DNA of 64,000 nucleotides from Perna viridis. Its lineage: Eukaryota. Positions 700 through 29,600 of the stretch are shown piece by piece. The stretch lies in contig CM074516.1 in assembly GCA_037379345.1 (NCBI GenBank), positions 14,942,001-15,006,000 of the forward strand, given 5' to 3'. Numbering within the stretch: the stretch's first letter is position 1; each line of letters opens with the position of its first letter. The notes beneath the pieces are model-generated. The model was given only the letters and a program-made list of their open reading frames with translations. It was not told the origin of the DNA and did not search any database. Made by a program: the position numbers and the translations under genes.

Positions 700-1640
700 T
701 AAAAGGGGCTTTTCTAGAAATACTCGCCGAGTTGCTCATAAAAAAGCAAGTCCGGGATAGACGAAAGAGGATAAGAAAACTATGACACGTTGAACAAATC
801 AGTTTTCATGGAGCAGATGGATACACCGTAACGATCCAAAAATTCATGATGACGACCATAAAACTTCTGTAGTGATGACTTCAATCTTGTAGCGACATAA
901 TCCTGTTCCAGAAGCCCAATTATAAGAATTCTAGCGCGATACAAAATGTCTACGTAGTTACGGCAAGCTCTGGCATAACGTATGGGTTGTGATATAAAAA
1001 AAACTCCTTACTCAGGTACTGAAGGCATGTTGCTACAGATAAAAGGAAAGTTGACAGTTCTGAATGAAAAGTCATCACGTTTGTCATAATGTTTTGTCAA
1101 TTGTTTCCCTTACCACCAATATCTATGTGTAGGTCAAGATATGAAACTGACTTCACAGTGTCTGTAGTATCCTTCATCTCAAGTTCTTTGGGGTACATGT
1201 AGATGCGATGTATCAAATGCCCATAACTAGGATTGTTAAACTATAATACATCATCTATAAAGCGGAAACTGAGATTAAAGGATTTAGCTAAACGATGTTC
1301 TTTCGGATCCAATCAGCTATAAAATAAGACTCATAAGAGTGAAAGAATAGGTCAGCAAGTAGAGGAGCACAATTTGTTCTCATTGAAATGCCGATATTTT
1401 GTTGAAAAAAAAAACGCGTCCATCACACTGGACAAATATGTTTTCGATAAAAAATTCCAGCATTTTGAAAACATCTTCTTCAATATATTTGAAAGATAAT
1501 TTGGAATTATTTTTTACAAAGTATCAGGAATCTCTACCAAGAAATATATATTTGTATCTAACTGTACCATCCTTTTGACAACGATGTATAATATTTTTGA
1601 TTCGAGACTTTAACTGAGTATGGGGAAAGAAGTATAATTT
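700..1640 (-). pseudogene. Penelope-like retroelement reverse transcriptase remnant
   Basis: Decayed motifs such as MLEF.IENIFVQ, FRF/YIDDVL, PKELEMKDTTDT..SYLDL, IRYARACRNY, KFYGRHH. Homologous to the copy at 52190-53600. Many stops and frameshifts. Confidence 0.85.
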
Positions 1641-2899
1641 CAGGGAAATGCCACTCGTTTTATTTTTCGTTGTTTATATTTAAAGCAGGGCCTAAATTTT
1701 CGCGAAATGAAAAGGCACCTAGAAAATTCGGTCCTTTCCCCAATAAAAATCAAATGGTTGGTACATGTAGTCAACTGAAAGGTCAAGAAAACTATGACGA
1801 TAGGTTACATAAATTGGCTATAGCCATTAGCGGGTCCAGCAAATCACTTTAGGAGGATGAACACATTTCAATGCAAGCATTTACACAACAAAATACGCTA
1901 TTTTCATTTTTTTCAAATTTATAAGCCCAAACCCCCCATTGGAATCGCCTATGAAAGTCCTGTCTCATAAACAAAATATGCACCAACTGAAGCCCTTCGT
2001 AATGAGAATACAGCCATTGCAATCATAGGTTTTCGGAAAAATTAGTTACATTTGGATAAATAAACGAAAAATACATACATGTATATAAATATCATTGCAC
2101 GAATCGATAAATGTATTAAGCCTTTTGCGTTTATAAGCAACATGGAAGAAGTGCTTTCGAAATAAACGTTTCAGGTGAAGATTTCTTCATTACCACATTT
2201 CATTATAATACTACAAATGTACATGTAATAATAATAAAAATGACATGTAATAAACGTTAGCACGACATAAATAGCGGCAGCAAACCGATCTTGGCTATGG
2301 TCTGCACTTGTGAAAAAATTTTGATATCGTGCCTTTTTATGGTTAAAAAAAAGCCACCTATGATAGTGTGGAAACCTCCTTTTTGGAACCCCTTTTCCAA
2401 ACTTTCTGAATCGGCCGCACCAGGAACAAAAGTACAGAGAAAGGACATCGCCAATCTTTCAATCAATTATATGAACGAGCTCTAATTTCATCGAGCCTCA
2501 ACGGAATATAGACTTGGGAAAGGGGAAAGTGTAGCGTTTGTAACGATGCCCTTTAATATTTTTTTCACATACCCAATGTATCAAATAGATAAATATACTT
2601 TACTGTACAAAGGGAGATAATCATGAAACGCGTGGTGTGATTTAATTTGCCAAAAAAAAAGTAAAATATAAAAGTGCATTTTGAAAAAAGGGGTAACTTA
2701 TACGTATATACATGTACTTACATATAGAAGTCAAACTTTGGCATGGGGCATTAAAAATGTTGAAGTCTTGGTCACTGTTTTAAACTATCTCAAATTCATT
2801 ATCTTATTTCTACCGTTCTAGAACAATTTACATGTGTATTACACGTAGGATAGCATTTCTTCTAATACATGGCAATACATGTAAGAAGTCAGTTACTAG

Positions 2900-3483
2900 C
2901 ACAGGGGCTCGGTGAAATGTATTTTAAGAAACATATATGCTCGCTAGGCAATGGGAACCTCGGAAAAGGTCAAAAGGGAATTTACGTGTTGCTTACTGTC
3001 TTTTTACAAATTGGATTTTTTCTCGCCTTTTGGCTAATTTTTGATACCAAAATTGAGTTCATACGTAACGGTTCTCTTTCTGTAATAAACCTCCCCTACA
3101 GTCTAAACTTCTCTTTCAACATAGATTTTTCCTAGTTTTTTAACCAGATACCAGAAGACGGACACCTACTATGACCGGAAGTGAAGGTATTGGCGCTCGG
3201 TATTGTCTAAAATATTCATTCTTAGGGTATGTTCTTTACCAGAAATGAATGAAACGTACTTTTCCACATCTCATGCATGCAATTTTCATTTCTTAACTCA
3301 CCGTAAGAATGTATATTTTAGCAAAACATTATTTGGGTCGGTACTGGTACGTGTACTGGTTAAAAAATCCGATTTGTAAAAAGGCGGTAATCTACTCGTT
3401 AATTCCCTTTTGACTTTTTCCGAGGTTCCAATTACCTAGCGAGCATATATGTTTCTTAAAATACATTTCACCAAGCCACTGTG
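2900..3483. mobile_element. Non-autonomous TIR element (MITE), P-element-like (CA...TG ends, 7-bp TSD)
   Basis: ~120-bp imperfect TIRs (2900-3021 / 3362-3483), termini CACAG...CTGTG, flanked by direct TTACTAG at 2893-2899 and 3484-3490. Mirror copy at ~31438-32021. Confidence 0.85.
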
Positions 3484-3609
3484 TTACTAGTAAACAAATC
3501 AACCATATATATTGATAAATTTATGTTAAGTTACAGCTGTTGAACAGTCTGAATGGTACATGTAAGCATACCACAGTGATCTTTCTTGGCCTGAACGTCG
3601 AACCAGAAT

Positions 3610-3830
3610 ATGGTTTGTGTAAAAATACTGATGAAAAATTACAGATATCTAGTTCTTAGATTATAAAAATGTTAAGGAAAAGCATAAAATAGAAGATTTT
3701 GCATTGTGATGCAGCGTTTCGATTTCCTGGAAGCAAACCATAAAATGCAGATCGGTCCTCGGATTTCAATACGTTCTGCATTGGAAATTCCGGAACAGAA
3801 ACTGAACTAGAACGAGACTTACAAATCCTA
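3610..3830 (-). repeat. Interspersed repeat, diverged copy also at ~50650-50870
   Basis: Shared blocks ttgtaagtctcgttctagtt...aacgtattgaaatccga.gaccgatctgcatttta (31098-31180 in the mirror vs 50661-50745). Confidence 0.7.
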
Positions 3831-6479
3831 TTCCAGCAATACTATTCTGGTTGGCCAACAATATTAATTTATTAAAACACACTCGTTACTTACTCGCTAA
3901 GTGCTCAATAAATACACAATTGTCCACACACATGGAGTCGCGATGAAAATGTCCAGGAAATGACAAGAAAGAGTCACATAGTTTTAATTAGCACTCCAGC
4001 TAAGAATCATTGATATTTTGTTTGAATTGCCATAGTAAACAAAAAATAACATTCGGTTTTTCTTTAAATTATATAGAATGCACTTTTGATTTCAAAATTA
4101 AGGAAGATAACTCTGCGAAAGACACTCAAATACAAAAGAATCTATTGGATTTTCAATGTTGATTACCTTCTATGAGCAGACAGATGGGAATGAATAATTA
4201 CACATTTCACAATATAGACTCATAAAACAACTTAATTACAAAAATAGAAATATGTAGCTCTTTTTTTGGTGTATCACATTTTTCAGATTTTGCATGATGC
4301 TTACATTGACTACTACTTAAGCATTCTCAGTCTTTATTAGCACGTCACTTAAAAATTTTCATATGGCTACGAAAGAACAAGCAGGGATCGATTAAATAAG
4401 TATGGAATGTAACTTTATCTTACATATAAAGCTTCCAATTGAACAGATAACCTTCACGGAACAAATTAATAATTAAATAAGTCTTATTTAGAGTGGGAAT
4501 AAAATGATCATACATATATATGTAATAAGAAGCACGAGCTCTGGTGAGCTTTCGACCGACATAAGACGGAACTTAATTCAGTCCCTAGCAAGCCTATAAG
4601 GTTGCGGAGTGATATGTATACATCAGGTCTGCGGAGGATATTTGATGTGGAAGGGTATACAGGCTTGTGGAATAAAATGTTGTAAATCGGAAGCAACTAT
4701 GTAGATACAATACAATTTGTCGCGTAAAGATGAATTAATTTAGCAAAAGTGAATGTATATTTGAAAGTATTTATTCTCTTGCCGTGTGTTATGTTGGGAC
4801 CAGGATTGTAGCTTTTACTGGTACCAGTAAAGCAGGGCTAGTCTTTCCCCATAACGACATGTAAATAGGCAGTCTAACTTTTGTCATCTTGCCATATTCT
4901 GTTCATGCAATTACTTTTCACTGTGGCCGTATTTTACATCTAAATTTAGTGTTTTTCGACACAAAATGAATCTTTGATAATAGTCCCTTTTATCATTTGG
5001 TGTCAATGGTGGGTGTTACCGTCTTAATTTCAGACAGTAACTCAACTCCCACTTATATAAGTCAACGATAGTAATGTTCATTACAAAACTTCCGGCTCTA
5101 AATACCAGTCGTTTCATTGAATCTATATAATAATCCAGGCCCTTCGTCAATACATTTTATTGAGAGGTACAAATCTACCCTCAGGTTTTTTCTTCAGCGC
5201 ATTATATGCACATGATACCTCAGGTCCGTCTTCAAGACATTATGTACATAGTTATATTATCTCAGGTCCTTCAATACCTATGTATAGGTTACGTTTGGTA
5301 TCTAACTTATTCTGATTTGGAAACTATTTTAAGCGCACTTTTTGTGTGCGATGCGGCAAGGTTACCTGGGGAAACTCTGTACTTGGAAGCCATCCAACGA
5401 CTGTTGCTTGCAGTTATAGGGTTGTTGACGAGATTGTCAAAATGCATTGTTCATGGATTTTGTACATTTTATTTCATTGTATTACCTTTACACAGTATGA
5501 TATAATTACGTAATATCCCAAGGACAGATAGAACAAGATACTCCTTCAATGACAGTGCTTTGAATAAATGAAAATTATCTGATTTAATGTCTTTTATGTG
5601 CTTTATAAAGGTATTTGTTATTTATTCAATAATTTATTGTGTGTTATATTTCATGTATGGAGAAGACCTTGTGAGTTGAAATAACTCGTGTCTGATCCAA
5701 ATTTGTTTATTTGCAAATAAAAGATATTTAAACTAAAACTATGATGGTAAAGTGATTTGACCACAAATAAGAAAATATATTCAGTTGATCCACACTGAAT
5801 TATATACTCGATTACCTGAACTAAATTAAATATTACGGAACATCCCAGGTCTAACTCAAATATTCGGAATTAAAACAAAATAACATGAGCTTCTATTTTA
5901 AAGCTAGGAACAAAATGACGGAGGGTGGACAAGGAAAAATAAATCTTCTACGAAAAGAGAAAACGGGAATACCTAAAAGACTCAAATCAATTATAGCTCG
6001 TTCCATTTTGTTTCTCGTTTGAACATCTTTTTTCCCGTCGTCTTTTGTCAGAACAACATTACGAGAATGTTCCATTGAAAATACATTTCGCGTTTGGTCG
6101 TTGATAGTAAACGTCGACTGGCAGAATACTATTAGATCTTAGAAAAAAAAAGAATAACGAGGGCGGAGATGTAACTTAGCAAATCACTGTAAATGTAGCA
6201 GAGGCTTGTGACGTCATGATATCAGGGTGTTGAAGAAAATTTACATGCTGGAAATCACATTTTTACCAGAATTTTCCATTACGCCCATCATAGATCTTTC
6301 GGGAATAAACAAATATTGATATATGAGACTCCGATGACACGGTATTAGCAATAAATTCAGCGAAAAGACTTTTTCATGGGTACATTCTCGTGACATTGGA
6401 TATGCTTTGTACTTAATTTTATGATAGGACAGTACTTAGACATTATTGATTAAATTGTTATTGTTGAGAAAGGGAGGAA

Positions 6480-6784
6480 TGTATAATGATTTTAAGAATT
6501 AATATTGTCTATGTTAACTATAAATTGAATTATATGCATGTACGGGTAAACATGTACGGGTAAACTGGACACATAGAATGTTTATGTCCAGATTCACATT
6601 GATTGATGGATGTGTCTTATATAATTGAATAGTATATATATTTGAACATGTTGTATGTTCAGAGAGCTCGCTTTTACTCTTGAACATGTTGTATATTCGG
6701 AGAGCTCGCTTTTACTCTTGTAATAAACGTTACAGTCAGTTTTACTTGTCTTGGAATTATTCATCCGTACCAGATCCTACCACA
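6480..6784 (+). repeat. 5' LTR with 2 copies of a 38-bp tandem unit
   Basis: TGTATAATG...CTACCACA, TATA-like ttatataa ~6617, unit gaacatgttgtatattcggagagctcgcttttactctt x2, AATAAA 6722-6727. Immediately preceded by purine tract gagaaagggaggaa. Confidence 0.88.
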
Positions 6785-6790
6785 TATTTT

Positions 6791-6800
6791 TGGTGCCGTG
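6791..6800 (+). promoter_or_regulatory. Primer-binding site complementary to tRNA-His 3' end
   Basis: TGGTGCCGTG, 6 nt after the LTR end, is the reverse complement of ...CACGGCACCA (eukaryotic tRNA-His acceptor end). 10-nt match. Confidence 0.8.
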
Positions 6801-6860
6801 TCAGTTCGTTCCTGAAAGTAAGTCGCTTTAATGTTATGTTAGATTTTGTTTTCTGTTAAA

Positions 6861-7281
6861 ATGACTGACCAAAATCCAATTGATGGATTGACTGTACAAT
6901 CAGCTAGCTTGTCGAATTCAGTAAATGTACAAACAGTTCTTAACCGTATTAAACCTTTTTACGGGGATTCAAAAGATTTTAAAGGTTGGGTTAAGGCTCT
7001 AGAAAAACATGCTTTTATCAGTAAGATACCTGCTCATGAAATTAAACAATTAGCTGTCTTGACTTCTAAGGGTGATGTAAGTTACACTATTCAACGCAGG
7101 CTTACAAATTTTCCAGAAGAAACTTGGGAAGGGTTAAAGAAAGAAATGATACTGTTTCTGATGCTCATTTCGCGGTAAAAATGCTAAGAAGAATTAGGCA
7201 AAAACATGAGGAAAATGTTCAATTTTTTTCTGAAAGGTTAGTAAATTTGGCTGAGGAAGCATATGATGATCTGCCGGGGGG
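6861..7281 (+). pseudogene. gag: Gypsy-type gag (capsid) fragment, frameshifted and 3'-truncated
   Basis: IKPFYGDSKDFKGWVKALEK...TWEGLKKEM, then a frame change to DAHFAVKMLRRIRQKHEENVQFFSERLVNLAEEAY (Retrotrans_gag-like motifs). No nucleocapsid or pol follows. Mirror 27639-28059 (-). Confidence 0.85.
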
Positions 7282-7729
7282 AATTTTAATTTCAATAGTG
7301 AATGTATTATAGTCTTGTTATTGTCTACACACACTTTATTATGGTTGACTCAAACCAAGAATGGACTAAGATTCATGCTTCAAACAAATCATGTACCAAA
7401 TGTATTGCGGATAGCAAAATATTGATGTAAGGTTACATTTTTTATGTTCCTGATAAGTTGTGAAGTTATGGAACTAGAGAAAGTTTTTGCGAAAAATAAT
7501 TTAGTTGCAGTAGTGCGTGTTCATAGGTTCATAGGTCAAATATATTCTGGTCGATTTTTTTTTCTTCTGATGGTTTCTATAAAATCTTATTCTTTCTTTG
7601 ATATTCCCTAGATGCAAATTACTATTCACAGAACTTCACTTTTATTTTAATTGGTGCATACGTAATTTTATCTTTTGTTATTGTCAGCGCCATTTGTCGT
7701 TGCGTATATACGAGCAGTGGTCGGTTGTA

Positions 7730-7836
7730 TTTATTTAGTTGAAGCCGTTAGATATATGGCTCTATGGCAGTTTGCCGTTATTGTTTTATTTAGTTGAAGC
7801 CGTTAGATATATGGCTGTATGGCAGTTGGCCGTCAT
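7730..7836 (+). repeat. 55-bp tandem duplication inside the element
   Basis: tttatttagttgaagccgttagatatatggct.tatggcagtt.gccgt occurs twice (gaagc at 7741 and 7796). Confidence 0.9.
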
Positions 7837-8242
7837 TTGAACGTAGATAACGTTGTTTTTATGTTACAAGAGGTGACATTGTTGACCGAGGCAATAAGAA
7901 AACACAGAAATGCGTATGTAGTAATGAGGTGCATCGTGAAGTTTTGTGAAAAGTTATTAAGTTGCTCTGAATTGGTTATCCAGATTTTGATTTGGTGTTT
8001 CTTACCATTTAGTTATTTTAGGCATGTTTAGCGTGCTTAAATTTTGCCGAGCATACTTTCTTTTAAATGCATATATTTCATTGTTTTATTTTTTATTCAT
8101 TTTGAAATCATTAGTTATGTTTCCTTAAAGTTAACTAGAAAATGGTGGTTCAGATCGAATTCAGTTGAACTCGTTGGCATTTAGCCAAAGTTTTAGAAAT
8201 TATCTGTTGTTATAACATTGGGTTCGTGTATCATTTATGCAG

Positions 8243-9034
8243 ATGGCACCATCCTTTTGATCGTGTGATCCAGTCAAGTTGACGCTATTGGCAGCATATC
8301 TTATTCAACCCGGGAGAGGATTGCCGGACGTGAGCCAGACAGAGATCGATGAGGTGGAAGATCGCATGAGGCGATGGCAGAGAAGATATGGGCTGTGTGG
8401 TCGAAGGGAGACCCTCGCGCATTACCTGGCGGACAATGAAGCAATGTGGACCTGGCTGCACCGCCAGCCGACACCGACGACGATGGTAAACAGGGTGTTG
8501 AATGTGTTCATTCCCTTACACGAACTTTGTGTTATTTTCAGGAGTATTCTGCCTCCGGAAATTACAGGTATCATTTGGATGATGTCTCGTGGGGGTCATC
8601 CAGATCAGACGAAGGCTGAGCACAGGCGTCGGGTGCGAGATTGTAATTTTGAATTACAGATTGCGGTCGCGGCCTGTGTATCTTTCGATACTGATTTGGT
8701 TGATGAGCACTGCTTTCGGCCTGTGGCTATTCGGAGTCGCGTGGTATTCTTTCGGGCATACCATGGCATTCGGCGGAACAGACTGGCCATCAGGGAAGTG
8801 TACGAGGAGACCCTTCGCCATTGGGTGTCTCTCCACCACCCAAGAACAATTCACAAATTCCGTGAGTATTTGCGTGTTTCGGTACGGTTAAACACTTGTC
8901 GAGCCAACAGGTCCCATACTGCCAACCGCCTCCTGCTGCTGACCGCGGAACCATTTTGCGGACGCCGGCGTAATGATAGTAATGTGTTTCAACATTACTC
9001 TTTCCACTATACTAGTGTGACATTTGTCGAATAA
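8243..9034 (+). CDS. Orphan accessory ORF of the element (~263 codons, Arg/His/Cys-rich), premature TGA at codon 6
   Basis: Acceptor-like tttatgcag|ATG at 8243 is in frame with the 251-aa ORF: MAPSF*SCDPVKLTLLAAYL... GC content is markedly higher than the flanks. No family recognised. Confidence 0.65.
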
Positions 9035-9248
9035 AGAAATTGGTTTTTCCTACCATTCGTGTATTCTTTGTATTACTACTGATTTTAATTTTAGTTAGGC
9101 GTCACCCTCGCTTTCATGTTTGCGCCTTGTTATTATGGTCTTACTTTTGGAGTGGTTTAATTATTATGTCTGGCGCATATTTAGTCGTGTTCTTTTAATT
9201 GGTTAGTGTGTATAATTTTATTAGTTATTGGTCTTGTTTATTGTAGAG

Positions 9249-11243
9249 ATGGTGGTGTTCCATGTCGTTGTCTTCCTGCTCATTGGAAGTGGGGTAGGCG
9301 TTACGATTCATGAAAATGTAGTTTTCCAAAAGGTTAATACGGTCACCATGAGCAAGTCACAATGACTAGTTACGTTTGTCATAGATTTACAACCTTTTTA
9401 GTCCTTTCTAGATTCATTATCCATATATTTAGGTCAGGGTACCATTGCAGTTCGTCAAATGTTAAATTTAGCAGTTGATCGTACCAATCCTTTGTATGCG
9501 GAAGTGTTATCTGCTTATTCGTCACTTACTGTTGAAATTTCGAGATTAAATACTACTAAACAACTAATTCAAGATAGTTTCGTTGATTTTAGCATCTTAG
9601 GGGATAGAAGGAAAAGAAGCCTTATTCCAATCATAGGTAAAGCTTTAAGTTTTCTATTTGGTACAGTCTCTGAGTCTGATTTGAGTTCTGTTCGGCGCAG
9701 TATTGGTAATTTGGCCCGTAATCAAAACAAGATTACGCATGTAGTGTCCGAAAGTATCTCAATTTTAAATATTACGAGAAATGAGGTCTTCCAAAATAGG
9801 GAACGTTTGAATTCATTGGTCACTAAGTATAGGGGTCTCATAGGTCGTCTGCAAAACAATACTGAACTTTTAAAGAAACATATTGTAAGTGTAGAAAATT
9901 TCATGGTACTTAGTTTTCATTTGCGGGATTTAGTTAAAGAACTTCATTTTATGATTGAAAAAGGTTTAGTCTATTTAGATAATTTGAAACTTCAATTAAA
10001 CATGCTATCTTTAGGCCATTTATCACCATCACTTATTACACCTTCGGAGTTAAGACACCTATTACTGGACGTTCAAGGTCATTTACCTTCATTTTTACAA
10101 TTATCTTCCGATCCCAAAAAGGACTTGTGGAATTATTATAAATCTCTAACATGTTCAACTTTAATTCAAGATGATAAAATTTTAATTATTTTTTCTTTAC
10201 CTTTGCTTGATTATCAAGGAGAATTAGAAATTTTTCAGGCCCACAATTTACCTATTCCTATGATGTCTAATCGTATTGGTAGATTATCACTGATTGCGAA
10301 GTATAAATTAGAAAGTAATGCATTGGCAGTTAATAAGGCTAGAACGCAATATGTGTTGTTAACTTCAGATGAATTAAAACAATGTTCCAATCCATTAGTC
10401 GGATTTTGCAACATTAAAAGTCCAGTCTACCCAGTAAACTTAAGTAAGACATGTATCATTACTCCTTTCATGAAAAACAAAAATATCTTAAATACACGTT
10501 GCCAAACACTCATTTATCCTAATTCGATTCTACCTATGGCAGATCACATACGGGAAGGTCTTTGGGTAATAGCCACACAAAAAAAGATTAAGACTCTCTG
10601 TAGTTTGTCGTCATCCTTCCCAATTATCTACCACAAGAATAAATTCACCTATTGGATTAGAAAAGTTACAACTTCTTGTTCTGCTAATAGTGATTCTTTA
10701 ACACTTTTACCATATTACAAGGGTGAAGACCGTTTTCAAAGTTCACAACCATTAAAAAGATTAATTGAAATTTACAATGTGTCTGAATTCACAATATGGC
10801 ACCCTTTTCATTTAGCTTTGCCTAATGTTACTGTTGATGAGCTTCCTAACACATTGCAACATATGGAAACCATACCAATGGCGAATTTAATCAATCAGTT
10901 AAAAGATTTACGAACAATTGATACTAGTTTTCAAATTCCAAATTGGGGGTATGCAGGTATCTCATTGTTAACTGCCATATTAATTGGGGTTGGGATATTT
11001 TGTTATTGTCGACAAGCTCGTTTTTGCAGACATCCATGGTTGGCCAGAAAAAACAGAGGCAAGTCTGACGAACATGAAGCAGCTGAAAATGGATATAAAC
11101 TGGTCCCAACAATGTCGACAGATTCTGACTCTGGGTTACGTAATAGACGATACTGCGACTTAGACGAAAACAAAGTTGAACAAGTGGTCATGAAAACAGT
11201 CTCCAAGATATATTCTTCGTTCGAGACACAACACAATGGATAA
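9249..11243 (+). pseudogene. env: Envelope glycoprotein, baculovirus-F/errantivirus class I fusion type; disabled
   Basis: Signal peptide MVVFHVVVFLLIGSGVG from ATG 9249, in frame with the 594-aa ORF. Stops at 9363 (TGA) and 9399 (TAG). Furin site RRKR 9606-9617 followed by fusion peptide SLIPIIGKALSFLFGTV, heptad region, Cys-rich region, TM WGYAGISLLTAILIGVGIFCYC and cytoplasmic tail. Confidence 0.9.
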
Positions 11244-11309
11244 CAATTTTGCGGTGCTGCCAATTACCTGGAAGACGGCTATGGCAGCCTCACACAATGA
11301 ACGATACTA

Positions 11310-11550
11310 CATAATCATGGAGCGCAGTAGACGGTGTTAGTGAATTTGTAGCTGTATAACCGAACTTTTACAACTTGTAGTTGTATAACCGAACTTTTAC
11401 AATTTATAGCTGTATAATCGAACTTTTACATTATATAATCATGGAGCAGAGGAGAGCTGGAGCGCAGTTGACGGTGTTGGTGACTTTGTAACTGTATAAA
11501 CAAACGTTTACATTTGTAATCATGGAGCAGAGGAGAGCTGGAGCGCGGAT
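11310..11550 (+). repeat. Complex tandem repeats in element 3' UTR
   Basis: Units (tgtataaccgaacttttaca) x3 and (taatcatggagc...ggagcgc) x3. Confidence 0.85.
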
Positions 11551-11811
11551 GATTTGTAAATAAACTCATTGATCTGTTATTATATTATTGAACTTGATGT
11601 TCCAGTAACGATAGGATCGGAACTCATTTATCATCTTCATGCGGTGTCGGACATTGACATTCATCTTTATATAACTTTTCTCATTTGATTTGTGCCTAGT
11701 TTCTGGTGACGGATTTTTCAAAATAAACTTGACTGTCCACAATTAGGGAGTACTACCACAATGCAAGTACGGTTACCGGCCTGTTTGCTGAATTATCTAC
11801 GATAATTCTTT

Positions 11812-11830
11812 GAGAAAGGGAGGAAAAAAA
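11812..11830 (+). promoter_or_regulatory. Polypurine tract
   Basis: gagaaagggaggaaaaaaa directly before the terminal repeat. Same core as the tract at 6466-6479. Confidence 0.8.
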
Positions 11831-11832
11831 TA

Positions 11833-12251
11833 TGTGGTAGAGTCTGGTACGGATGAATAATTCCAAGACAAGTAAAACTGACTGCAACGTTTATTACAAG
11901 AGTAAAAGCGAGCTCTCCGAATATACAACATGTTCAAGAGTAAAAGCGAGCTCTCCGAATATACAACATGTTCAAGAGTAAAAGCGAGCTCTCCAAATAT
12001 ACAACATGTTCAAGAGTAAAAGCGAGCTCTCCGAATATACAACATGTTCAAGAGTAAAAGCAAGCTCTCTGAACATACAACATGTTCAAATATATATACT
12101 ATTTAATTATATAAGACACATCCATCAATCAATGTGAATCTGGACATAAAAATTCTATGTGTCCAGTTTACCCGTACATGTTTATCCGTACATGCATATA
12201 ATTCAATTTAGAGTTAACATAGACAATATTAATTCTTAAAGTCATTATACA
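11833..12251 (-). repeat. Inverted LTR with 5 copies of the 38-bp unit
   Basis: Reverse complement of 6480-6784 with about 10 substitutions over the full repeat and three extra tandem units. Confidence 0.92.
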
Positions 12252-12458
12252 TTCCTCCCTTTCTCAACAATAACAATTTAATCAAGAATGTCTAAGTACT
12301 GTCTTATCATATTTTCTCACCCAGCTGTTTAATGACAATCCATTAAGGATTTTAAATTCTCGGTTTGGTCACATTAACTTTAGTTGACGTATGCTTCCTA
12401 GTGGGTTTAGACCAATAATTGATTGAGATACTTTATGTTTTTTTAATATTGGTTGCAA

Positions 12459-12611
12459 ATGGATCTCCGATTTTGCACTTTGGTGTATTTTTTCTTGCAT
12501 TATAGATTAGTGAGTGCTGCGATTAGATTGAATGGTAACGGATATGAAGGAGTAATTGTAACTATAGCGGATCATGTACAAAATGATCCAACATTTCTGA
12601 CTCTAATACAG
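12459..12611 (+). CDS. CLCA: First coding exon of a calcium-activated chloride channel regulator (CLCA)-family gene; later exons not found
   Basis: Signal peptide plus IRLNGNGYEGVIVTIADHVQNDPTFLTLIQ (cf. CLCA1 [30 protein letters not shown]), ending at phase-0 donor CAG|GTAATT. Confidence 0.85.
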
Positions 12612-13544
12612 GTAATTAAATTAAATTATTATATAGATAGCAGTGATTTACCGAATGTTCCCAGTGTAAAACATTTCGATAATTAACACGGTGAAATAAA
12701 TTCGGTAATTTCACTCTCGGACTTTCTACCGCCAAAACGTCCTATAACGTCTCACCACGATTATCAATCCGCCGTTCACAAACTTTGAAATTAATGTTAG
12801 AAATAGCAACGAATAATAGAGAAAATCTATATGATAAATATGATAATCAGCTGGTTATCATGCATAGCCAAAATTGGATCCCTCGTGCGCACACTCATTT
12901 TATCTGGACGATCTTCTGCTCACTTGATCGTATTTAGGCACACAGACAGAAAGTTTATTTTAGTCTCACCTCTCATATACCAATATACAATAAAATATTT
13001 CATGAACATTACAGGTAATAAAATTACTTACAATCGACAGCCACCCTTGAAAGAGTTATGAGTGACTAATTATATACAACATAACTATCTACACTATTTT
13101 ACATAAAACATTCCTTGTATGAATTAAAATATCATGGCAGATTTTGACAGTGTAAAAACATGCATATTCATTTTTGAATAAAAGTAAAAAATAAATAATC
13201 ATTTGATAAATTCATAAAATCAGCATTAAAACAAGCTCGTTTAAATAGCCCACTTCGTAATTTGGCATGTAAAGGGCATACAAGTTCTCTATACAGTTAT
13301 TTATAATATATTCACATTCATAATAAAGATACTCTATTCTCGAGTGCGAAATCATCATATCTACCAGTTCCCATTTTTATGGATGCAACATCACATCTAA
13401 GTTTAAAATATGCACTTCTATATCTACCTAGCATATCTAAGCCTACATATTTCTTTAGATCATATATTTAGATAGAAATATACCTTTTTTGTATATGCAT
13501 TATAAGTGTTTATTTAAACCAAAAGATGCATATATTTTACCCTG

Positions 13545-13640
13545 TATCGCATACCCTATATCCCACCTCTAGATCTATATCGCATACCCTATATCACACA
13601 CCTAGACCTATATCGCATACCCAATATCGCACGCCTATAC
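13545..13640. repeat. ~33-bp minisatellite, ~3 copies
   Basis: tatcgcataccctatatc.cac...ctaga.cta repeated. Confidence 0.8.
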
Positions 13641-13656
13641 ACAGAACACAATTGAA

Positions 13657-13839
13657 GTATGGTTAAAATATAAGGTATAATGAACATGACATGTCAAAAT
13701 CTGTGGTATCAACCCCGAGTGGCTCGACCTATATCAACCCGCGGGCCGGTGGCCCTTGGGGTGATATAGCTAAGAAGTCTCGGGTTGATACCGCATGCGA
13801 TACAGATTTTGACATGTAGTAGTCAGTATTTACCATACT
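13657..13839. mobile_element. Short palindromic (fold-back) element, possibly Crypton-derived
   Basis: agtatggt...acatgtcaaaatctg...ggtatcaacccc / gggttgatacc...cagattttgacatgt...accatact, centred on gggccggtggccc. A similar hairpin lies at ~44185-44275. Confidence 0.65.
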
Positions 13840-14652
13840 GATTTTTAAACATTTTGTTTGTTTTAAGTTTACTATGGTCATTCCACATTATACCAATGTT
13901 GTGTATATGTAATGAAAGATTCATTTTCAATATATTTTTTTACATTTTTATCAAAAATATACTCTGTATTACAGAAAGGAGACATATTTAGCTCTCTAAA
14001 TTTACTATGAACTCTGAAATTCCCGATATAAATATTGTTATTACAACACTCATTAGACCATAAAATACCTATTTATTGATTCTGTTGTTACACATTTTTG
14101 TATACCTGGACCAAGTCCTAAAATACAAGATTTATATTTAGCTATTGACAAACTAAGTGACCGACTGGCAAACTTTGCCACACTTTGGCAGTCTGATTAT
14201 AATTAAAAAAATCCTTCAGTACTAACCCTAGGTAAGTATATTCATCAACAATTTCCAAGTGTTTAACATTAAATATAAAGCTGAAAGTTGATCTATTATA
14301 AAAATGACTAGCGCCTAAAAAAAAAACATTCTTTGATTTATCTATATTCACGACCAGATTATTGTAAACACACACCATACATTCAAAGTGTCTAATACAT
14401 TTTGCAGATCATTTTCAGTTTCTGCTAAGGAAAAAAAGAGAAGTATTCAATATATAACATATCTCCTCAGGTGTAATTTCACAATCTAGAATCTCATTAC
14501 AAGCTATATTATTCAAATTTAAATTAACCTTTTTGTGGTTTTGATTCAACATATTACATAAATTATTTCTCCTTTTATTCATGACAATATTTTAGCACAT
14601 GAAATTGATCCACCGATCAATTACTTCACTTGGAATTTTATTTCGACGTTCA

Positions 14653-14718
14653 TAGATCGCCTGAATATAGCTGAAATATTGCTCCTCGGGCGTTAAACCC
14701 CAACAAACAAACATACAA
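14653..14718 (+). mobile_element. 5'-truncated SINE 3' end with (CAAA)n tail
   Basis: atatagctgaaatattgct...gcgttaaaccccaacaaacaaac flanked by a 13-bp TSD atttcgacgttca / attccgacgttca. Confidence 0.75.
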
Positions 14719-14755
14719 ATTCCGACGTTCACTGCCGGTTACCAGATATGCATTT

Positions 14756-15810
14756 CAGTGTTCTAGCTAGGAATTGAAAATAGAGGGGCGCAGGGAAGAG
14801 GGCACTTCAACGCGTAGCATGTTTTTTTGTCAACAAAATAGGGACTTGATTTTGTATGTTTGTGTTAAGTCAGTAATTTGTATTCTTATTGCTTACCTGC
14901 CAACTTTTGAAAATGAAGGTCGCATCATAATTTGCAAACTGAGTAAATTTGACTGCATGATTAATATATGCATGATACCCTTATTGTATTGAAAGACCTT
15001 TCTCGGATGACCAAGTGCTTTTAGATTTTGAACACATATATATAGAGGTGATTATGCTGTTAATGTATTACTGTAGCCTTCAGATCCCCTATGAAAGAGT
15101 TAGGGAATTGGTTTTGATTTGATTAGTTCTTGTTTAATTAAGACTTGTTATAGTTCTTGCCGTGAGGCAGCCTGTCAACTAATTGAGGTGATAGGGGCGA
15201 GTGATTGTTTACATTTATGACATACTATGAGATGAAATGTTGCATGAAATGTTACAAATATTCAATATTGCTCCAATTAAATATCAAAATCTTAAGAAAG
15301 TAAAAGAAATATTATTTCCTTTAACTATTGCAATTACCACTTATGGAACATATCCTTTACTGTTGAAGATATAGAAAATTTTTAGAATATTGAAATTATA
15401 AGGGAGGTAACTGACATCTTGAATAAACAAACATGTGCAACATGCAATTGTTTACACCCGTAGTTCTACAAAATTTAGACCTTTTACCTTGAAAATATTT
15501 GTAAAATTAGTTGTGCAGTAGAAATTAATTGTTAACCAATGATTGTCTGTCCATAAAATTGTTATAGATCCAATCAGAATTCATTTTCTACTTGTCAATC
15601 ATTATCGGATAACCCTGGTCAGCTGATTGATCACCGATAATTGCCTGAGGTTTACTGGAGGGTAAATTACGACAGTATGTAGTTAATGAAGGTAACACTA
15701 TAGAGTGGACATCTTAAAGGGCCATTCAGGTAAATGTAAATGGACACTAGAGGGGTACTCAATAGGAGTAGAGGGGCGCGGGCGTGATAGGGGCCATAGC
15801 TAGGACACTG
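14756..15810. mobile_element. Non-autonomous hAT-like DNA transposon with 5-bp TSD
   Basis: TIR cagtgttctagcta / tagctaggacactg (1 mismatch), TSD CATTT at 14751-14755 and 15811-15815. The mirror copy 19133-20167 lacks the last 20 bp. Confidence 0.8.
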
Positions 15811-22100: not shown

Positions 22101-22309
22101 TCTATTATTCGTTGCTATTTCTAACATTAATTTCAAAGTTTGTGAACGGCGGATTGATAATCGTGGTGAGACGTTATAGGACGTTTTGGCGGTAGAAAGT
22201 CCGAGAGTGAAATTACCGAATTTATTTCACCGTGTTAATTATCGAAATGTTTTACACTGGGAACATTCGGTAAATCACTGCTATCTATATAATAATTTAA
22301 TTTAATTAC

Positions 22310-22462: not shown

Positions 22463-23676
22463 TTGCAACCAATATTAAAAAACATAAAGTATCTAAATCA
22501 ATTATTGGTCTAAACCAACTAGGAAGCATACGTCAACTAAAGTTAATGTGACCAAACCGAGAATTTAAAATCCTTAATGGATTGTCATTAAACAGCTGGG
22601 TGAGAAAATATGATAAGACAGTACTTAGACATTCTTGATTAAATTGTTATTGTTGAGAAAGGGAGGAATGTATAATGACTTTAAGAATTAATATTGTCTA
22701 TGTTAACTCTAAATTGAATTATATGCATGTACGGATAAACATGTGCGGGTAAACTGGACACATAGAATGTTTATGTCCAGATTCACATTGATTGATGGAT
22801 GTGTCTTATATAATTGAATAGTATATATATTTGAACATGTTGTATGTTCAGAGAGCTTGCTTTTACTCTTGAACATGTTGTATATTCGGAGAGCTCGCTT
22901 TTACTCTTGAACATGTTGTATATTCGGAGAGCTCGCTTTTACTCTTGAAAATGTTGTATATTCGGAGAGCTCGCTTTTACTCTTGAAAATGTTGTATATT
23001 CGGAGAGCTCGCTTTTACTCTTGTAATAAACGTTGCAGTCAGTTTTACTTGTCTTGGAATTATTCATCCGTACCAGACTCTACCACATATTTTTTTCCTC
23101 CCTTTCTCAAAGAATTATCGTAGATAATTCAGCAAACAGGCCGGTAACCGTACTTGCATTGTGGTAGTACTCCCTAATTGTGGACAGTCAAGTTTATTTT
23201 GAAAAATCCGTCACCAGAAACTAGGCACAAATCAAATGAGAAAAGTTATATAAAGATGAATGTCAATGTCCGACACCGCATGAAGATGATAAATGAGTTC
23301 CGATCCTATCGTTACTGGAACATCAAGTTCAATAATATAATAACAGATCAATGAGTTTATTTACAAATCATCCGCGCTCCAGCTCTCCTCTGCTCCATGA
23401 TTACAAATGTAAACGTTTGTTTATACAGTTACAAAGTCACCAACACCGTCAACTGCGCTCCAGCTCTCCTCTGCTCCATGATTATATAATGTAAAAGTTC
23501 GATTATACAGCTATAAATTGTAAAAGTTCGGTTATACAACTACAAGTTGTAAAAGTTCGGTTATACAGCTACAAATTCACTAACACCGTCTACTGCGCTC
23601 CATGATTATGTAGTATCGTTCATTGTGTGAGGCTGCCATAGCCGTCTTCCAGGTAATTGGCAGCACCGCAAAATTG

Positions 23677-25671
23677 TTATCCATTGTGTTGTGTCTCGAA
23701 CGAAGAATATATCTTGGAGACTGTTTTCATGACCACTTGTTCAACTTTGTTTTCGTCTAAGTCGCAGTATCGTCTATTACGTAACCCAGAGTCAGAATCT
23801 GTCGACATTGTTGGGACCAGTTTATATCCATTTTCAGCTGCTTCATGTTCGTCAGACTTGCCTCTGTTTTTTCTGGCCAACCATGGATGTCTGCAAAAAC
23901 GAGCTTGTCGACAATAACAAAATATCCCAACCCCAATTAATATGGCAATTAACAATGAGATACCTGCATACCCCCAATTTGGAATTTGAAAACTAGTATC
24001 AATTGTTCGTAAATCTTTTAACTGATTGATTAAATTCGCCATTGGTATGGTTTCCATATGTTGCAATGTGTTAGGAAGCTCATCAACAGTAACATTAGGC
24101 AAAGCTAAATGAAAAGGGTGCCATATTGTGAATTCAGACACATTGTAAATTTCAATTAATCTTTTTAATGGTTGTGAACTTTGAAAACGGTCTTCACCCT
24201 TGTAATATGGTAAAAGTGTTAAAGAATCACTATTAGCAGAACAAGAAGTTGTAACTTTTCTAATCCAATAGGTGAATTTATTCTTGTGGTAGATAATTGG
24301 GAAGGATGACGACAAACTACAGAGAGTCTTAATCTTTTTTTGTGTGGCTATTACCCAAAGACCTTCCCGTATGTGATCTGCCATAGGTAGAATCGAATTA
24401 GGATAAATGAGTGTTTGGCAACGTGTATTTAAGATATTTTTGTTTTTCATGGAAGGAGTAATGATACATGTCTTACTTAAGTTTACTGGGTAGACTGGAC
24501 TTTTAATGTTGCAAAATCCGACTAATGGATTGGAACATTGTTTTAATTCATCTGAAGTTAACAACACATATTGCGTTCTAGCCTTATTAACTGCCAATGC
24601 ATTACTTTCTAATTTATACTTCGCAATCAGTGATAATCTACCAATACGATTAGACATCATAGGAATAGGTAAATTGTGGGCCTGAAAAATTTCTAATTCT
24701 CCTTGATAATCAAGCAAAGGTAAAGAAAAAATAATTAAAATTTTATCATCTTGAATTAAAGTTGAACATGTTAGAGATTTATAATAATTCCACAAGTCCT
24801 TTTTGGGATCGGAAGATAATTGTAAAAATGAAGGTAAATGACCTTGAACGTCCAGTAATAGGTGTCTTAACTCCGAAGGTGTAATAAGTGATGGTGATAA
24901 ATGGCCTAAAGATAGCATGTTTAATTGAAGATTCAAATTATCTAAATAGACTAAACCTTTTTCAATCATAAAATGAAGTTCTTTAACTAAATCCCGCAAA
25001 TGAAAACTAAGTACCATGAAATTTTCTACACTTACAATATGTTTCTTTAAAAGTTCAGTATTGTTTTGCAGACGACCTATGAGACCCCTATACTTAGTGA
25101 CCAATGAATTCAAACGTTCCCTATTTTGGAAGACCTCATTTCTCGTAATATTTAAAATTGAGATACTTTCGGACACTACATGCGTAATCTTGTTTTGATT
25201 ACGGGCCAAATTACCAATACTGCGCCGAACAGAACTCAAATCAGACTCAGAGACTGTACCAAATAGAAAACTTAAAGCTTTACCTATGATTGGAATAAGG
25301 CTTCTTTTCCTTCTATCCCCTAAGATGCTAAAATCAACGAAACTATCTTGAATTAGTTGTTTAGTAGTATTTAATCTCGCAATTTCAACAGTAAGTGACG
25401 AATAAGCAGATAACACTTCCGCATACAAAGGATTGGTACGATCAACTGCTAAATTTAACATTTGACGAACTGCAATGGTACCCTGACCTAAATATATGGA
25501 TAATGAATCTAGAAAGGACTAAAAAGGTTGTAAATCTATGACAAACGTAACTAGTCATTGTGACTTGCTCATGGTGACCGTATTAACCTTTTGGAAAACT
25601 ACATTTTCATGAATCGTAACGCCTACCCCACTTCCAATGAGCAGGAAGACAACCACATGGAACACCACCAT
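23677..25671 (-). pseudogene. env: Mirror copy of env
   Basis: Same two stops. 4 amino-acid differences in the 594-aa part (S/A, K/N, F/S, T/I). Confidence 0.9.
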
Positions 25672-25885
25672 CTCTACAATAAACAAGACCAATAACTAAT
25701 AAAATTATACACACTAACCAATTAAAAGAACACGACTAAATATGCGCCAGACATAATAATTAAACCACTCCAAAAGTAAGACCATAATAACAAGGCGCAA
25801 ACATGAAAGCGAGGGTGACGCCTAACTAAAATTAAAATCACTAGTAATACAAAGAATACACGAATGGTAGGAAAAACCAATTTCT

Positions 25886-26677
25886 TTATTCGACAAATGT
25901 CACACTAGGATAGTGGAAAGAGTAATGTTGAAACACATTACTATCATTACGCCGGCGTCCGCAAAATGGCTCCGCGGTCAGCAGCAGGAGGCGGTTGGCA
26001 GTATGGGACCTGTTGGCTCGACAAGTGTTTAACCGTACCGAAATACGCAAACACTCACGGAATTTGTGAATTGTTCTTGGGTGGTGGAGAGACACCCAAT
26101 GGCGAAGGGTCTCCTCGTACACTTCCCTGACGGCCAGTCTGTTCCGCCGAATGCCATGGTATGCCCGAAAGAATACCACGCGACTCCGAATAGCCACAGG
26201 CCGAAGGCAGTGCTCATCAACCAAATCAGTATCGAAAGATACACAGGCCGCGACCGCAATCTGTAATTCAAAATTACAATCTCGCACCCGACGCCTGTGC
26301 TCAGCCTTCGTCTGATCTGGATGACCCCCACGAGACATCATCCAAATGATACCTGTAATTTCCGGAGGCAGAATACCCCTGAAAATAACACAAAGTTCGT
26401 GTAAGGGAATGAACACATTCAACACCCTGTTTACCATCGTCGTCGGTGTCGGCTGGCGGTGCAGCCAGGTCCACATTGCTTCCTTGTCCGCCAGGTAATG
26501 CGCGAGGGTCTCCCTTCGACCACACAGCCCATATCTTCTCTGCCATCGCCTCATGCGATCTTCCACCTCATCGATCTCTGTCTGGCTCACGTCCGGCAAT
26601 CCTCTCCCGGGTTGAATAAGATATGCTGCCAATAGCGTCAACTTGACTGGATCACACGATCAAAAGGATGGTGCCAT
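25886..26677 (-). CDS. Mirror copy of orphan accessory ORF
   Basis: Same layout and same early stop. 7 amino-acid differences from copy 1. Confidence 0.65.
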
Positions 26678-29600
26678 CTGCATAAATGATACACGAACCC
26701 AATGTTATAACAACAGATAATTTCTAAAACTTTGGCTAAATGCCAACGAGTTCAACTGAATTCGATCTGAACCACCATTTTCTAGTTAACTTTAAGGAAA
26801 CATAACTAATGATTTCAAAATGAATAAAAAATAAAACAATGAAATATATGCATTTAAAAGAAAGTATGCTCGGCAAAATTTAAGCACGCTAAACATGCCT
26901 AAAATAACTAAATGGTAAGAAACACCAAATCAAAATCTGGATAACCAATTCAGAGCAACTTAATAACTTTTCACAAAACTTCACGATGCACCTCATTACT
27001 ACATACGCATTTCTGTGTTTTCTTATTGCCTCGGTCAACAATGTCACCTCTTGTAACATAAAAACAACGTTATCTACGTTCAAATGACGGCCAACTGCCA
27101 TACAGCCATATATCTAACGGCTTCAACTAAATAAAACAATAACGGCAAACTGCCATAGAGCCATATATCTAACGGCTTCAACTAAATAAATACAACCGAC
27201 CACTGCTCGTATATACGCAACGACAAATGGCGCTGACAATAACAAAAGATAAAATTACGTATGCACCAATTAAAATAAAAGTGAAGTTCTGTGAATAGTA
27301 ATTTGCATCTAGGGAATATCAAAGAAAGAATAAGATTTTATAGAAACCATCAGAAGAAAAAAAAATCGACCAGAATATATTTGACCTATGAACCTATGAA
27401 CACGCACTACTGCAACTAAATTATTTTTCGCAAAAACTTTCTCTAGTTCCATAACTTCACAACTTATCAGGAACATAAAAAATGTAACCTTACATCAATA
27501 TTTTGCTATCCGCAATACATTTGGTACATGATTTGTTTGAAGCATGAATCTTAGTCCATTCTTGGTTTGAGTCAACCATAATAAAGTGTGTGTAGACAAT
27601 AACAAGACTATAATACATTCACTATTGAAATTAAAATTCCCCCCGGCAGATCATCATATGCTTCCTCAGCCAAATTTACTAACCTTTCAGAAAAAAATTG
27701 AACATTTTCCTCATGTTTTTGCCTAATTCTTCTTAGCATTTTTACCGCGAAATGAGCATCAGAAACAGTATCATTTCTTTCTTTAACCCTTCCCAAGTTT
27801 CTTCTGGAAAATTTGTAAGCCTGCGTTGAATAGTGTCACTTACATCACCCTTAGAAGTCAAGACAGCTAATTGTTTAATTTCATGAGCAGGTATCTTACT
27901 GATAAAAGCATGTTTTTCTAGAGCCTTAACCCAACCTTTAAAATCTTTTGAATCCCCGTAAAAAGGTTTAATACGGTTAAGAACTGTTTGTACATTTACT
28001 GAATTCGACAAGCTAGCTGATTGTACAGTCAATCCATCAATTGGATTTTGGTCAGTCATTTTAACAGAAAACAAAATCTAACATAACATTAAAGCGACTT
28101 ACTTTCAGGAACGAACTGACACGGCACCAAAAATATGTGGTAGGATCTGGTACGGATGAATAATTCCAAGACAAGTAAAACTGACTGTAACGTTTATTAC
28201 AAGAGTAAAAGCGAGCTCTCCGAATATACAACATGTTCAAGAGTAAAAGCGAGCTCTCTGAACATACAACATGTTCAAATATATATACTATTCAATTATA
28301 TAAGACACATCCATCAATCAATGTGAATCTGGACATAAACATTCTATGTGTCCAGTTTACCCGTACATGTTTACCCGTACATGCATATAATTCAATTTAT
28401 AGTTAACATAGACAATATTAATTCTTAAAATCATTATACATTCCTCCCTTTCTCAACAATAACAATTTAATCAATAATGTCTAAGTACTGTCCTATCATA
28501 AAATTAAGTACAAAGCATATCCAATGTCACGAGAATGTACCCATGAAAAAGTCTTTTCGCTGAATTTATTGCTAATACCGTGTCATCGGAGTCTCATATA
28601 TCAATATTTGTTTATTCCCGAAAGATCTATGATGGGCGTAATGGAAAATTCTGGTAAAAATGTGATTTCCAGCATGTAAATTTTCTTCAACACCCTGATA
28701 TCATGACGTCACAAGCCTCTGCTACATTTACAGTGATTTGCTAAGTTACATCTCCGCCCTCGTTATTCTTTTTTTTTTCTAAGATCTAATAGTATTCTGC
28801 CAGTCGACGTTTACTATCAACGACCAAACGCGAAATGTATTTTCAATGGAACATTCTCGTAATGTTGTTCTGACAAAAGACGACGGGAAAAAAGATGTTC
28901 AAACGAGAAACAAAATGGAACGAGCTATAATTGATTTGAGTCTTTTAGGTATTCCCGTTTTCTCTTTTCGTAGAAGATTTATTTTTCCTTGTCCACCCTC
29001 CGTCATTTTGTTCCTAGCTTTAAAATAGAAGCTCATGTTATTTTGTTTTAATTCCGAATATTTGAGTTAGACCTGGGATGTTCCGTAATATTTAATTTAG
29101 TTCAGGTAATCGAGTATATAATTCAGTGTGGATCAACTGAATATATTTTCTTATTTGTGGTCAAATCACTTTACCATCATAGTTTTAGTTTAAATATCTT
29201 TTATTTGCAAATAAACAAATTTGGATCAGACACGAGTTATTTCAACTCACAAGGTCTTCTCCATACATGAAATATAACACACAATAAATTATTGAATAAA
29301 TAACAAATACCTTTATAAAGCACATAAAAGACATTAAATCAGATAATTTTCATTTATTCAAAGCACTGTCATTGAAGGAGTATCTTGTTCTATCTGTCCT
29401 TGGGATATTACGTAATTATATCATACTGTGTAAAGGTAATACAATGAAATAAAATGTACAAAATCCATGAACAATGCATTTTGACAATCTCGTCAACAAC
29501 CCTATAACTGCAAGCAACAGTCGTTGGATGGCTTCCAAGTACAGAGTTTCCCCAGGTAACCTTGCCGCATCGCACACAAAAAGTGCGCTTAAAATAGTTT

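What the first reader, a model, noticed from the sequence alone, without database searches (positions are those of the whole stretch)
6421..12310. Env-bearing Gypsy-like element bounded by INVERTED LTRs
Seen: a canonical LTR-PBS(His)-gag...env-PPT order, but after the PPT comes the reverse complement of the LTR, joined through aaaaatatgtggtag. The whole unit has 370/485-bp terminal inverted repeats (ATGATAGG...CTTATCAT) and a candidate 5-bp TSD ATTTT. Known: Metaviridae need direct R repeats for strand transfer, and inverted ends are typical of DIRS, which use a tyrosine recombinase and have no PBS or TSD. Inference: this is either an undescribed non-autonomous, panhandle-type retrovirus-like element mobilised as a unit, or a fixed aberrant reverse-transcription/template-switch product. 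Either way, two LTR promoters face each other across gag/ORF/env.
Basis: partly seen in the sequence, partly recalled or inferred. Interest (0 to 1): 0.9.

Follow-up and report, generated by a model that had tools for sequence, protein, structure and literature searches.

The report
Retrovirus-like insertion with two left ends
A dead copy of an envelope-carrying jumping gene was inserted with its end repeats facing each other, most likely through a copying slip; the same family made this kind of slip at more than a dozen other places in the genome, but no such copy has spread as a unit.

Summary
The inverted LTRs are real (365/479 bp, 97% alike), but the true ends are 6420 and 12311 and the family's target duplication is 4 bp, not 5 (here ATTT/TTTT). 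The element is a pol-less, broken copy of a mollusc-type F-env, tRNA-His errantivirus family whose members mostly have direct LTRs. Its PPT-to-inverted-LTR junction occurs only here and in a second copy made by an 18.6-kb inverted duplication, so it is not a mobile panhandle family. It is not a one-off either: 14 independent loci of this family are bounded by two inward-facing U3 ends (8 with a perfect 4-bp duplication), each with its own internal junction, about 6-8% of insertions. Here the junction joins the PPT end to the unprocessed U5 end, which points to a plus strand that jumped onto strong-stop DNA during reverse transcription, followed by integration through two U3 ends (inferred, about 0.68). 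The right end is bridged by contigs in four public samples; the PPT junction and an empty site were not seen in reads. The scan noted similar single cases in two fungal genomes.

The parts
6416..6419 (+). left target-site 4-mer ATTT
   Evidence: family duplication is 4 bp
6420..6784 (+). 5' LTR, 365 bp, TATG...CCACA; TATA-like 6618, AATAAA 6722, two 38-bp repeats 6642-6720, short imperfect hairpin near 6565-6593
6785..6790 (+). 6-nt spacer TATTTT between U5 and the primer-binding site
6791..6802 (+). primer-binding site for tRNA-His(GUG), 11 of 12 match
6861..7285 (+). 5' remnant of gag, frameshifted and cut by the deletion that also removed pol; the deletion junction is shared with L031, L032, L079 and L036
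7286..8076 (+). non-coding segment shared with other pol-less copies
8261..9034 (+). GC-rich 257-aa stop-to-stop frame upstream of env, function unknown; also open in L081 and L082
9249..11243 (+). F-type env, broken by in-frame stops at 9363 and 9399; RRKR furin-like site followed by a hydrophobic stretch; up to 42% identical over most of its length to mollusc retroelement env proteins
11809..11826 (+). polypurine tract ending GGAGGAAA, identical to normal copies up to the base where U3 should start
11827..11832 (-). inverted copy of the U5-PBS spacer (the unprocessed U5 end of the cDNA)
11833..12311 (-). complete LTR in reverse orientation, 479 bp, five 38-bp repeats; its U3 start forms the right end of the insertion
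12312..12315 (+). right target-site 4-mer TTTT (3 of 4 match to the left one)
22609..28500 (-). second copy of the whole element with the same flanks, 21 substitutions from the first, in the other arm of a large inverted duplication

Best explanation
A pol-less derivative of an F-env errantivirus was packaged and reverse-transcribed by an autonomous relative. Late in replication the growing plus strand reached the PPT/U3 boundary, where a strong-stop strand blocks the way. Instead of displacing it, reverse transcriptase jumped onto the free 3' end of a plus-strand strong-stop DNA that ended at the U5 spacer (tRNA already removed) and copied it backwards. The cDNA then carried a U3 attachment end on both sides, and integrase inserted it with the family's 4-bp duplication. 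With no direct R repeat at its 3' end the copy cannot do minus-strand transfer and is a dead end. Shown: layout, termini, junction at both intermediate boundaries, uniqueness of the junction, recurrence of two-U3-end insertions. Inferred: the template jump, integrase action, and the dead end.
For: (1) The junction is the PPT up to the last base before U3, followed by the reverse complement of LTR plus spacer from the tRNA/DNA boundary; the spacer normally follows only a 5' LTR or an unprocessed cDNA end. (2) In Ty3 a second-round plus-strand strong-stop DNA ends at U5 because the tRNA is gone, and such strands accumulate in particles (PMC5371799, section 6 read). (3) 14 independent loci have two inward-facing U3 ends: 8 perfect 4-bp duplications, 5 at 3 of 4, 1 at 2 of 4; P about 4e-15 for 8 of 14 at an assumed 34% GC. 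Three inward pairs 23-66 kb apart match at 2, 1 and 0 of 4 and serve as controls. (4) Flanks are not mirrored in 13 of 13 loci tested (2-8 of 20 identical), so the inverted arm stops at the LTR terminus. (5) L036, L087 and L110 also switch at the unprocessed U5 end; L110 has PPT, 101 nt of U3, then 726 of 730 nt of the LTR inverted. (6) The two LTRs share five minority alleles, a combination not seen in 32 other LTRs, so they are sisters. (7) The right end plus flank is bridged by single contigs in 4 of 4 runs laid (47 LTR bases in X10 and X2, only 25 in X1 and X3).
Against: The window's own duplication is imperfect (3 of 4; such a match arises by chance about 7% of the time by my arithmetic). 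No empty site was found in the assembly or in reads. No listed contig crosses the PPT junction, so the inverted layout as a whole rests on the assembly. The jump has at most 1-3 nt of A/T pairing, whereas the retroviral RT clamp needs at least one C or G (PMC3035444, abstract). End-joining of two cDNA pieces would give the same sequence. Two R/U5 sites (313, 356) differ between the LTRs at positions that vary in the family. Ty3-type PPT recycling is not shown for this family.
Confidence: 0.68

Rival explanations
1. Still a cDNA-stage product inserted through two U3 ends, but made by host end-joining: a cDNA broken or stalled at the PPT was ligated to the unprocessed U5 end of a second LTR duplex before integration.
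For: The A run is the plain sum of the two ends (3+4), as blunt joining would give; L036 and L087 join the unprocessed U5 end to unrelated pieces without microhomology. End-joining of LTR ends is known from 2-LTR circles (PMC7197481, passages).
Against: It needs a double-strand end exactly at the PPT/U3 boundary. Ten of the 14 loci are fold-backs or switches inside one LTR, some at local hairpins, which fits polymerase strand switching better.
Confidence: 0.13
2. A normal direct-LTR insertion was rearranged later by host replication: the fork switched from the PPT to the 5' LTR/PBS boundary, copied the 5' LTR backwards and rejoined at the target duplication, replacing the 3' LTR.
For: AAA at the PPT end can pair with TTT in the spacer; the two LTRs are sisters; the duplication would be kept.
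Against: That pairing predicts 5 A, not 7. Rejoining must land exactly on the terminus with almost no homology (CATA against CACA) in this locus, L033, L036 and L041. Host switches should sometimes overshoot into the flank; 0 of 13 do.
Confidence: 0.09
3. Two separate insertions in opposite orientation, fused by a deletion between the PPT of one and the PBS boundary of the other.
For: The spacer after the inverted LTR is what a genomic 5' LTR carries; the duplication is imperfect.
Against: Both breakpoints would fall by chance on reverse-transcription boundaries; the LTRs are sisters; 0.13 inward pairs within 10 kb are expected by chance against 9 independent ones found by exact motif.
Confidence: 0.04
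4. Assembly artefact: a chimeric or fold-back read flipped the 3' LTR.
For: The locus lies in a 99.7-99.9% identical inverted duplication that may itself be a false duplication; reads across the PPT junction were not seen.
Against: The two arms differ by 21 substitutions in the element, 6 inside the inverted LTR, yet share the layout; one arm-distinguishing site (13021) varies among public samples; the reverse U3 end next to the right flank is in four samples; chimeras do not make target duplications.
Confidence: 0.04
5. A non-autonomous panhandle element that replicates with inverted LTRs as a unit.
For: Inverted-end insertions with different target duplications exist at 14 loci.
Against: No junction is shared between loci with different flanks, apart from two short fold-backs at one hairpin; sister pol-less copies have direct LTRs; no internal complementary region or tyrosine recombinase was seen, which DIRS needs (PMC7192593, passages).
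Confidence: 0.02

Closest known systems
F-type-env 'ancient' errantiviruses (Ty3/gypsy, Metaviridae) of molluscs and annelids, PMC13524379
   Same: gag-PR-RT-IN order in longer family copies, Baculo_F-type env, tRNA-His PBS set several bases from the LTR, PPT, 4-bp duplication
   Different: This copy lacks pol, is broken in gag and env, has an extra frame before env, and has an inverted 3' LTR; the word 'inverted' does not occur in that paper's main text.
Aberrant retroviral proviruses from reverse-transcription errors (HIV-1 asymmetric LTRs and inversions, PMC9278108)
   Same: Integrated dead-end products of template switching; 2 of 78 distinct proviruses there carried inversions
   Different: The passages read describe 3' LTR deletions and genome inversions, not a whole LTR flipped to give two U3 ends; here such ends are germline-fixed at about 6-8% of loci.
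Auto-integration inversion circles of LTR retrotransposons (PMC7197481)
   Same: LTRs end up inverted relative to each other
   Different: Those are circles made by integrase joining a processed end to an internal site; here the internal U5 end is unprocessed and the unit sits in the chromosome with a target duplication.
DIRS-1 tyrosine-recombinase retrotransposons (PMC7192593)
   Same: Inverted terminal repeats facing each other across the coding region
   Different: DIRS needs an internal complementary region and a tyrosine recombinase; this family has a DDE integrase, PBS, PPT and target duplications, and inversion is the exception.

Membership tests
Ty3/gypsy errantivirus (family of origin) | gag, then pol in the order protease-RT-integrase | tested here: met
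   Pfam Retrotrans_gag (below cut-off), RVP, RVT_1, Integrase_H2C2 and rve in longer copies L044 and L078; pol is deleted in the window copy
Ty3/gypsy errantivirus (family of origin) | env of F type after pol | tested here: met
   Baculo_F hit in L081; the window frame itself has no Pfam hit, but many of its 82 homologues carry PF12259
Ty3/gypsy errantivirus (family of origin) | tRNA PBS after the 5' LTR and PPT before the 3' LTR | tested here: met
Ty3/gypsy errantivirus (family of origin) | direct LTRs | tested here: not met
   not met for this copy; met for most two-LTR family copies such as L031, L032, L035, L079, L080, L096
Ty3/gypsy errantivirus (family of origin) | short target-site duplication | tested here: inconclusive
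   3 of 4 at this locus with no empty site; 23 of 29 perfect at normal loci
Ty3/gypsy errantivirus (family of origin) | RT placed in the errantivirus clade by phylogeny | not tested
   no tree built
DIRS | tyrosine recombinase instead of DDE integrase | tested here: not met
   family pol carries rve and H2C2
DIRS | internal complementary region repeating both outer ends | tested here: not met
   self-comparison shows no internal copy of the termini
Mobile inverted-LTR (panhandle) subfamily | same internal junction at several sites with different flanks | tested here: not met
   2 full-length junction matches among 41 hits, both in the duplicated locus

The most novel reading that the evidence does not exclude
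This errantivirus lineage routinely turns a few percent of its cDNAs into two-U3-end insertions, and these are more than scars: copies such as this one, with facing LTR promoters or short hairpins, are kept as sources of double-stranded or antisense RNA that silence the family, and the short fold-backs are a route from LTR retroelements to MITE-like elements.
Probability: 0.12. Interest if true: 0.8.

Novelty: new variant of a known kind. Interest (0 to 1): 0.5.

Why it matters
It shows from germline fossils that a gypsy-type integrase accepts two U3 ends often enough to leave 14 loci in one genome, and it freezes short-lived replication intermediates (PPT boundary, unprocessed U5 end) at base resolution. 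Such copies are missed by LTR finders, which require direct repeats, and the short ones look like MITEs. They could also be natural hairpin or antisense triggers against their own family. The copy itself is dead and no new replication mode is shown.

Tried and rejected
Empty-site pattern in the assembly: no match. Reads: no empty allele and no listed contig across the PPT junction; most pieces and loose ends were not shown, so this is no evidence of absence; summed depths could not tell whether the large duplication is real. The motif for an unprocessed U5 end was at chance level genome-wide (64 matches against 74 in the control) and was not used for counts. A burst of MITE-like copies from one fold-back junction: only 2 loci. 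In-place flip of the 3' LTR between short inverted repeats: rejected, since the inverted copy carries the 5' spacer, not the target 4-mer. Auto-integration: rejected, since the inner U5 end is unprocessed. C7:49.58 Mb (L068) looked like an outward pair but is a solo LTR duplicated with its flanks. L098 first looked like the same junction but is PPT, a deleted 3' LTR, then a fold-back. L070, L071, L072 are truncated U3 starts with no partner in about 16 kb. The extra frame gave no Pfam, word-index or Atlas hit and one real-looking relative among 2 hits. No Rfam match in 1-35000. The LTR hairpin is only modestly stable (z -1.8). Nine paper searches found no description of gypsy insertions with two U3 ends; PMC8786324 (passages) says the locust Gypsy-25 has 'an inverted pair of LTRs', which I could not check without the figure. 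PMC8090852 (passages) was irrelevant; PMC1676259 is not held. Subscription and older retrovirus papers are not covered.
Full report
Observation. The repeats at the two ends are real: 6420-6784 and, reversed, 11833-12311 differ at 10 of 365 aligned sites, and the extra 114 bp on the right are three more copies of a 38-bp repeat. Between them lie a tRNA-His PBS, a gag remnant, a non-coding stretch, a 257-aa frame of unknown function, an F-type env with two in-frame stops near its start, and a PPT. The env homologues with names are from Mytilus, Haliotis, Argopecten, Lottia and Mercenaria, so the host is probably a marine mollusc (inference). Family copies show that the LTR runs TATG (older: TGTG) to CCACA and that the duplication is 4 bp: 23 of 29 normal loci are perfect at 4 bp and none at 5 bp (L040, L068 and the C5 long copy were left out of that script and are also perfect). 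The element is therefore 6420-12311 with ATTT and TTTT outside; an equally possible parse is a perfect ATTT with a right end one base short. The window also holds a second copy (22609-28500) because the region is an inverted duplication with arms of about 18.6 kb, 99.7-99.9% identical, around a 3.3-kb spacer.

Family. Longer copies carry gag, protease, RT, integrase and Baculo_F env between direct LTRs; all copies whose frames I mapped are interrupted. This fits the F-env errantiviruses of molluscs described in PMC13524379 (passages and supplement rows read: 10 mollusc elements with a His_GUG PBS, mostly set 8-21 bases from the called LTR end). The window copy belongs to a pol-less subfamily: its gag deletion junction is shared with L031, L032 and L079, which have direct LTRs, and with L036.

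Is the inverted layout a mobile unit? No. A search with the PPT junction gave 41 hits; only the two duplicated copies match across it. Every other PPT that I looked at is followed by a forward LTR start, except L098 and L095, where the 3' LTR is partly deleted.

Is it a one-off? Also no. Exact motifs for the U3 start gave 191 matches in 163 clusters. Ten clusters are inward-facing pairs bounding one unit (nine independent, since the window locus is duplicated), against 0.13 expected within 10 kb; one further cluster pairs an older LTR with L031, which has its own duplication, and was not fetched. Five more loci came from BLAST and PPT follow-up. The 14 loci and their flanking 4-mers: window ATTT/TTTT; L033 ATAG, L036 TCAT, L041 TGAC, L098 ACAG, L099 ACTT, L118 TAAC, L121 AATA and L110+L122 AAAA, all perfect; L106, L109, L119, L120 at 3 of 4; L111 at 2 of 4. 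One locus has two U5 ends with a perfect CTAT (L075); U5 ends were searched only for the younger subfamilies. Sizes run from 126 bp to 5.9 kb and junctions differ; only L106 and L111 fold back at the same hairpin. Flanks are not mirrored in 13 of 13 tested. Three inward pairs 23-66 kb apart do not share 4-mers. So about 6-8% of detectable insertions have two like ends; the count is rough because degenerate ends are missed on both sides.

Mechanism. Shown: the plus strand reads PPT up to the base before U3, then the reverse complement of spacer plus whole LTR, starting at the tRNA/DNA boundary. The spacer is not the target 4-mer, so this is not a 3' LTR flipped in place. In Ty3, a second plus-strand strong-stop DNA ends at U5 once the tRNA is removed and such strands accumulate (PMC5371799, section 6); that species is exactly what is inverted here. 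Inferred: the plus strand stalled where it had to displace a strong-stop strand, jumped to the 3' end of such a strand, copied it back to the U3 start, and integrase used the two U3 ends. The same logic covers L036 (full 3' LTR, unprocessed end, then 102 nt of inverted U3), L110 (whole LTR inverted from the U5 end), L033 (switch inside pol), the intra-LTR fold-backs, and, on the other strand, L075. The two window LTRs share five minority alleles found together in none of 32 other LTRs, as expected for one event; their 2.7% divergence lies within the 0.6-4.5% of five direct pairs. Against: the A/T-only joint does not meet the C/G requirement of the retroviral clamp (PMC3035444, abstract), host end-joining would give the same letters, and a later host template switch is not excluded. 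A weak hint for Ty3-type PBS inheritance is a one-base PBS deviation shared by three older copies (L098, L122, L131), but another tRNA could explain it. That the copy cannot transpose follows from established knowledge: minus-strand transfer needs a direct R at the 3' end.

Reality check. Contigs from four samples of three studies were laid on 11450-13400 (4 of 13 listed runs). In all four a single contig joins the reverse U3 end to the right flank (47 LTR bases in X10 and X2, 25 in X1 and X3, below the tool's 31-base rule); one run may be the source sample. No empty allele and no contig across the PPT junction was listed. The two assembly arms differ at 21 sites in the element and share the layout, and site 13021, which separates the arms, varies among samples, so a single chimeric read is unlikely.

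Comparison and novelty. It descends from an errantivirus and fails the DIRS tests. Inversions in proviruses are known (2 of 78 in PMC9278108, passages) and inversion circles are known (PMC7197481, passages), but nine searches of the held library found no account of recurrent two-U3-end gypsy insertions; a loose statement on locust Gypsy-25 (PMC8786324) could not be checked. Two earlier scan notes report single cases in fungi (unchecked here, read after I had formed my reading). Verdict: real, a dead aberrant insertion, member of a recurrent and apparently little-described class; new variant of a known kind; interest 0.5.

Noticed in passing
window 1-15790 and 19133-37689 (left arm extends 2,768 bases before the window): Inverted duplication with 18.6-kb arms, 99.7-99.9% identical, 3.3-kb spacer; real palindrome or two haplotypes assembled in tandem.
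   Followed up: partly
window 8261-9034; L081:4408-5223; L082:5188-5925: GC-rich near-orphan frame between pol and env in the young subfamily, largely absent from other copies; one relative (P0084, 65% over 66 aa) among 1.8 billion representatives.
   Followed up: partly
L031, L032, L035, L044/L081: Direct LTR pairs of single insertions often differ in length (362/403, 350/309, 553/313, 539/577) through repeat gains and losses, although substitutions are few.
   Followed up: no
family LTR starts: A young subfamily begins TATG instead of TGTG yet still inserts with clean 4-bp duplications, so the canonical terminal CA is not needed at the U3 end.
   Followed up: partly
window 6465-6480; L117, L119: The LTR carries an internal copy of the PPT about 45-60 nt from its start; in L117 and L119 a second U3 start follows it, suggesting it can prime.
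   Followed up: no
L087:3289-4016: LTR with unprocessed U5 end joined to 130 bp of inverted pol and no matching duplication.
   Followed up: partly
L075:2536-2980: 445-bp insertion with two U5 ends and a perfect CTAT duplication.
   Followed up: partly
L125:878-1290: Tandem array of at least nine LTR-start units, a satellite forming from the U3 end.
   Followed up: no
L034:5933-6411: Normal-ended insertion containing the same U3 hairpin fold-back as L041 inside it.
   Followed up: no
window 12625-12850: Very high-copy short repeat in the right flank (summed contig depth thousands of times the neighbouring flank).
   Followed up: no
window 36223-36741: 21-bp-period AT-rich tandem array.
   Followed up: no
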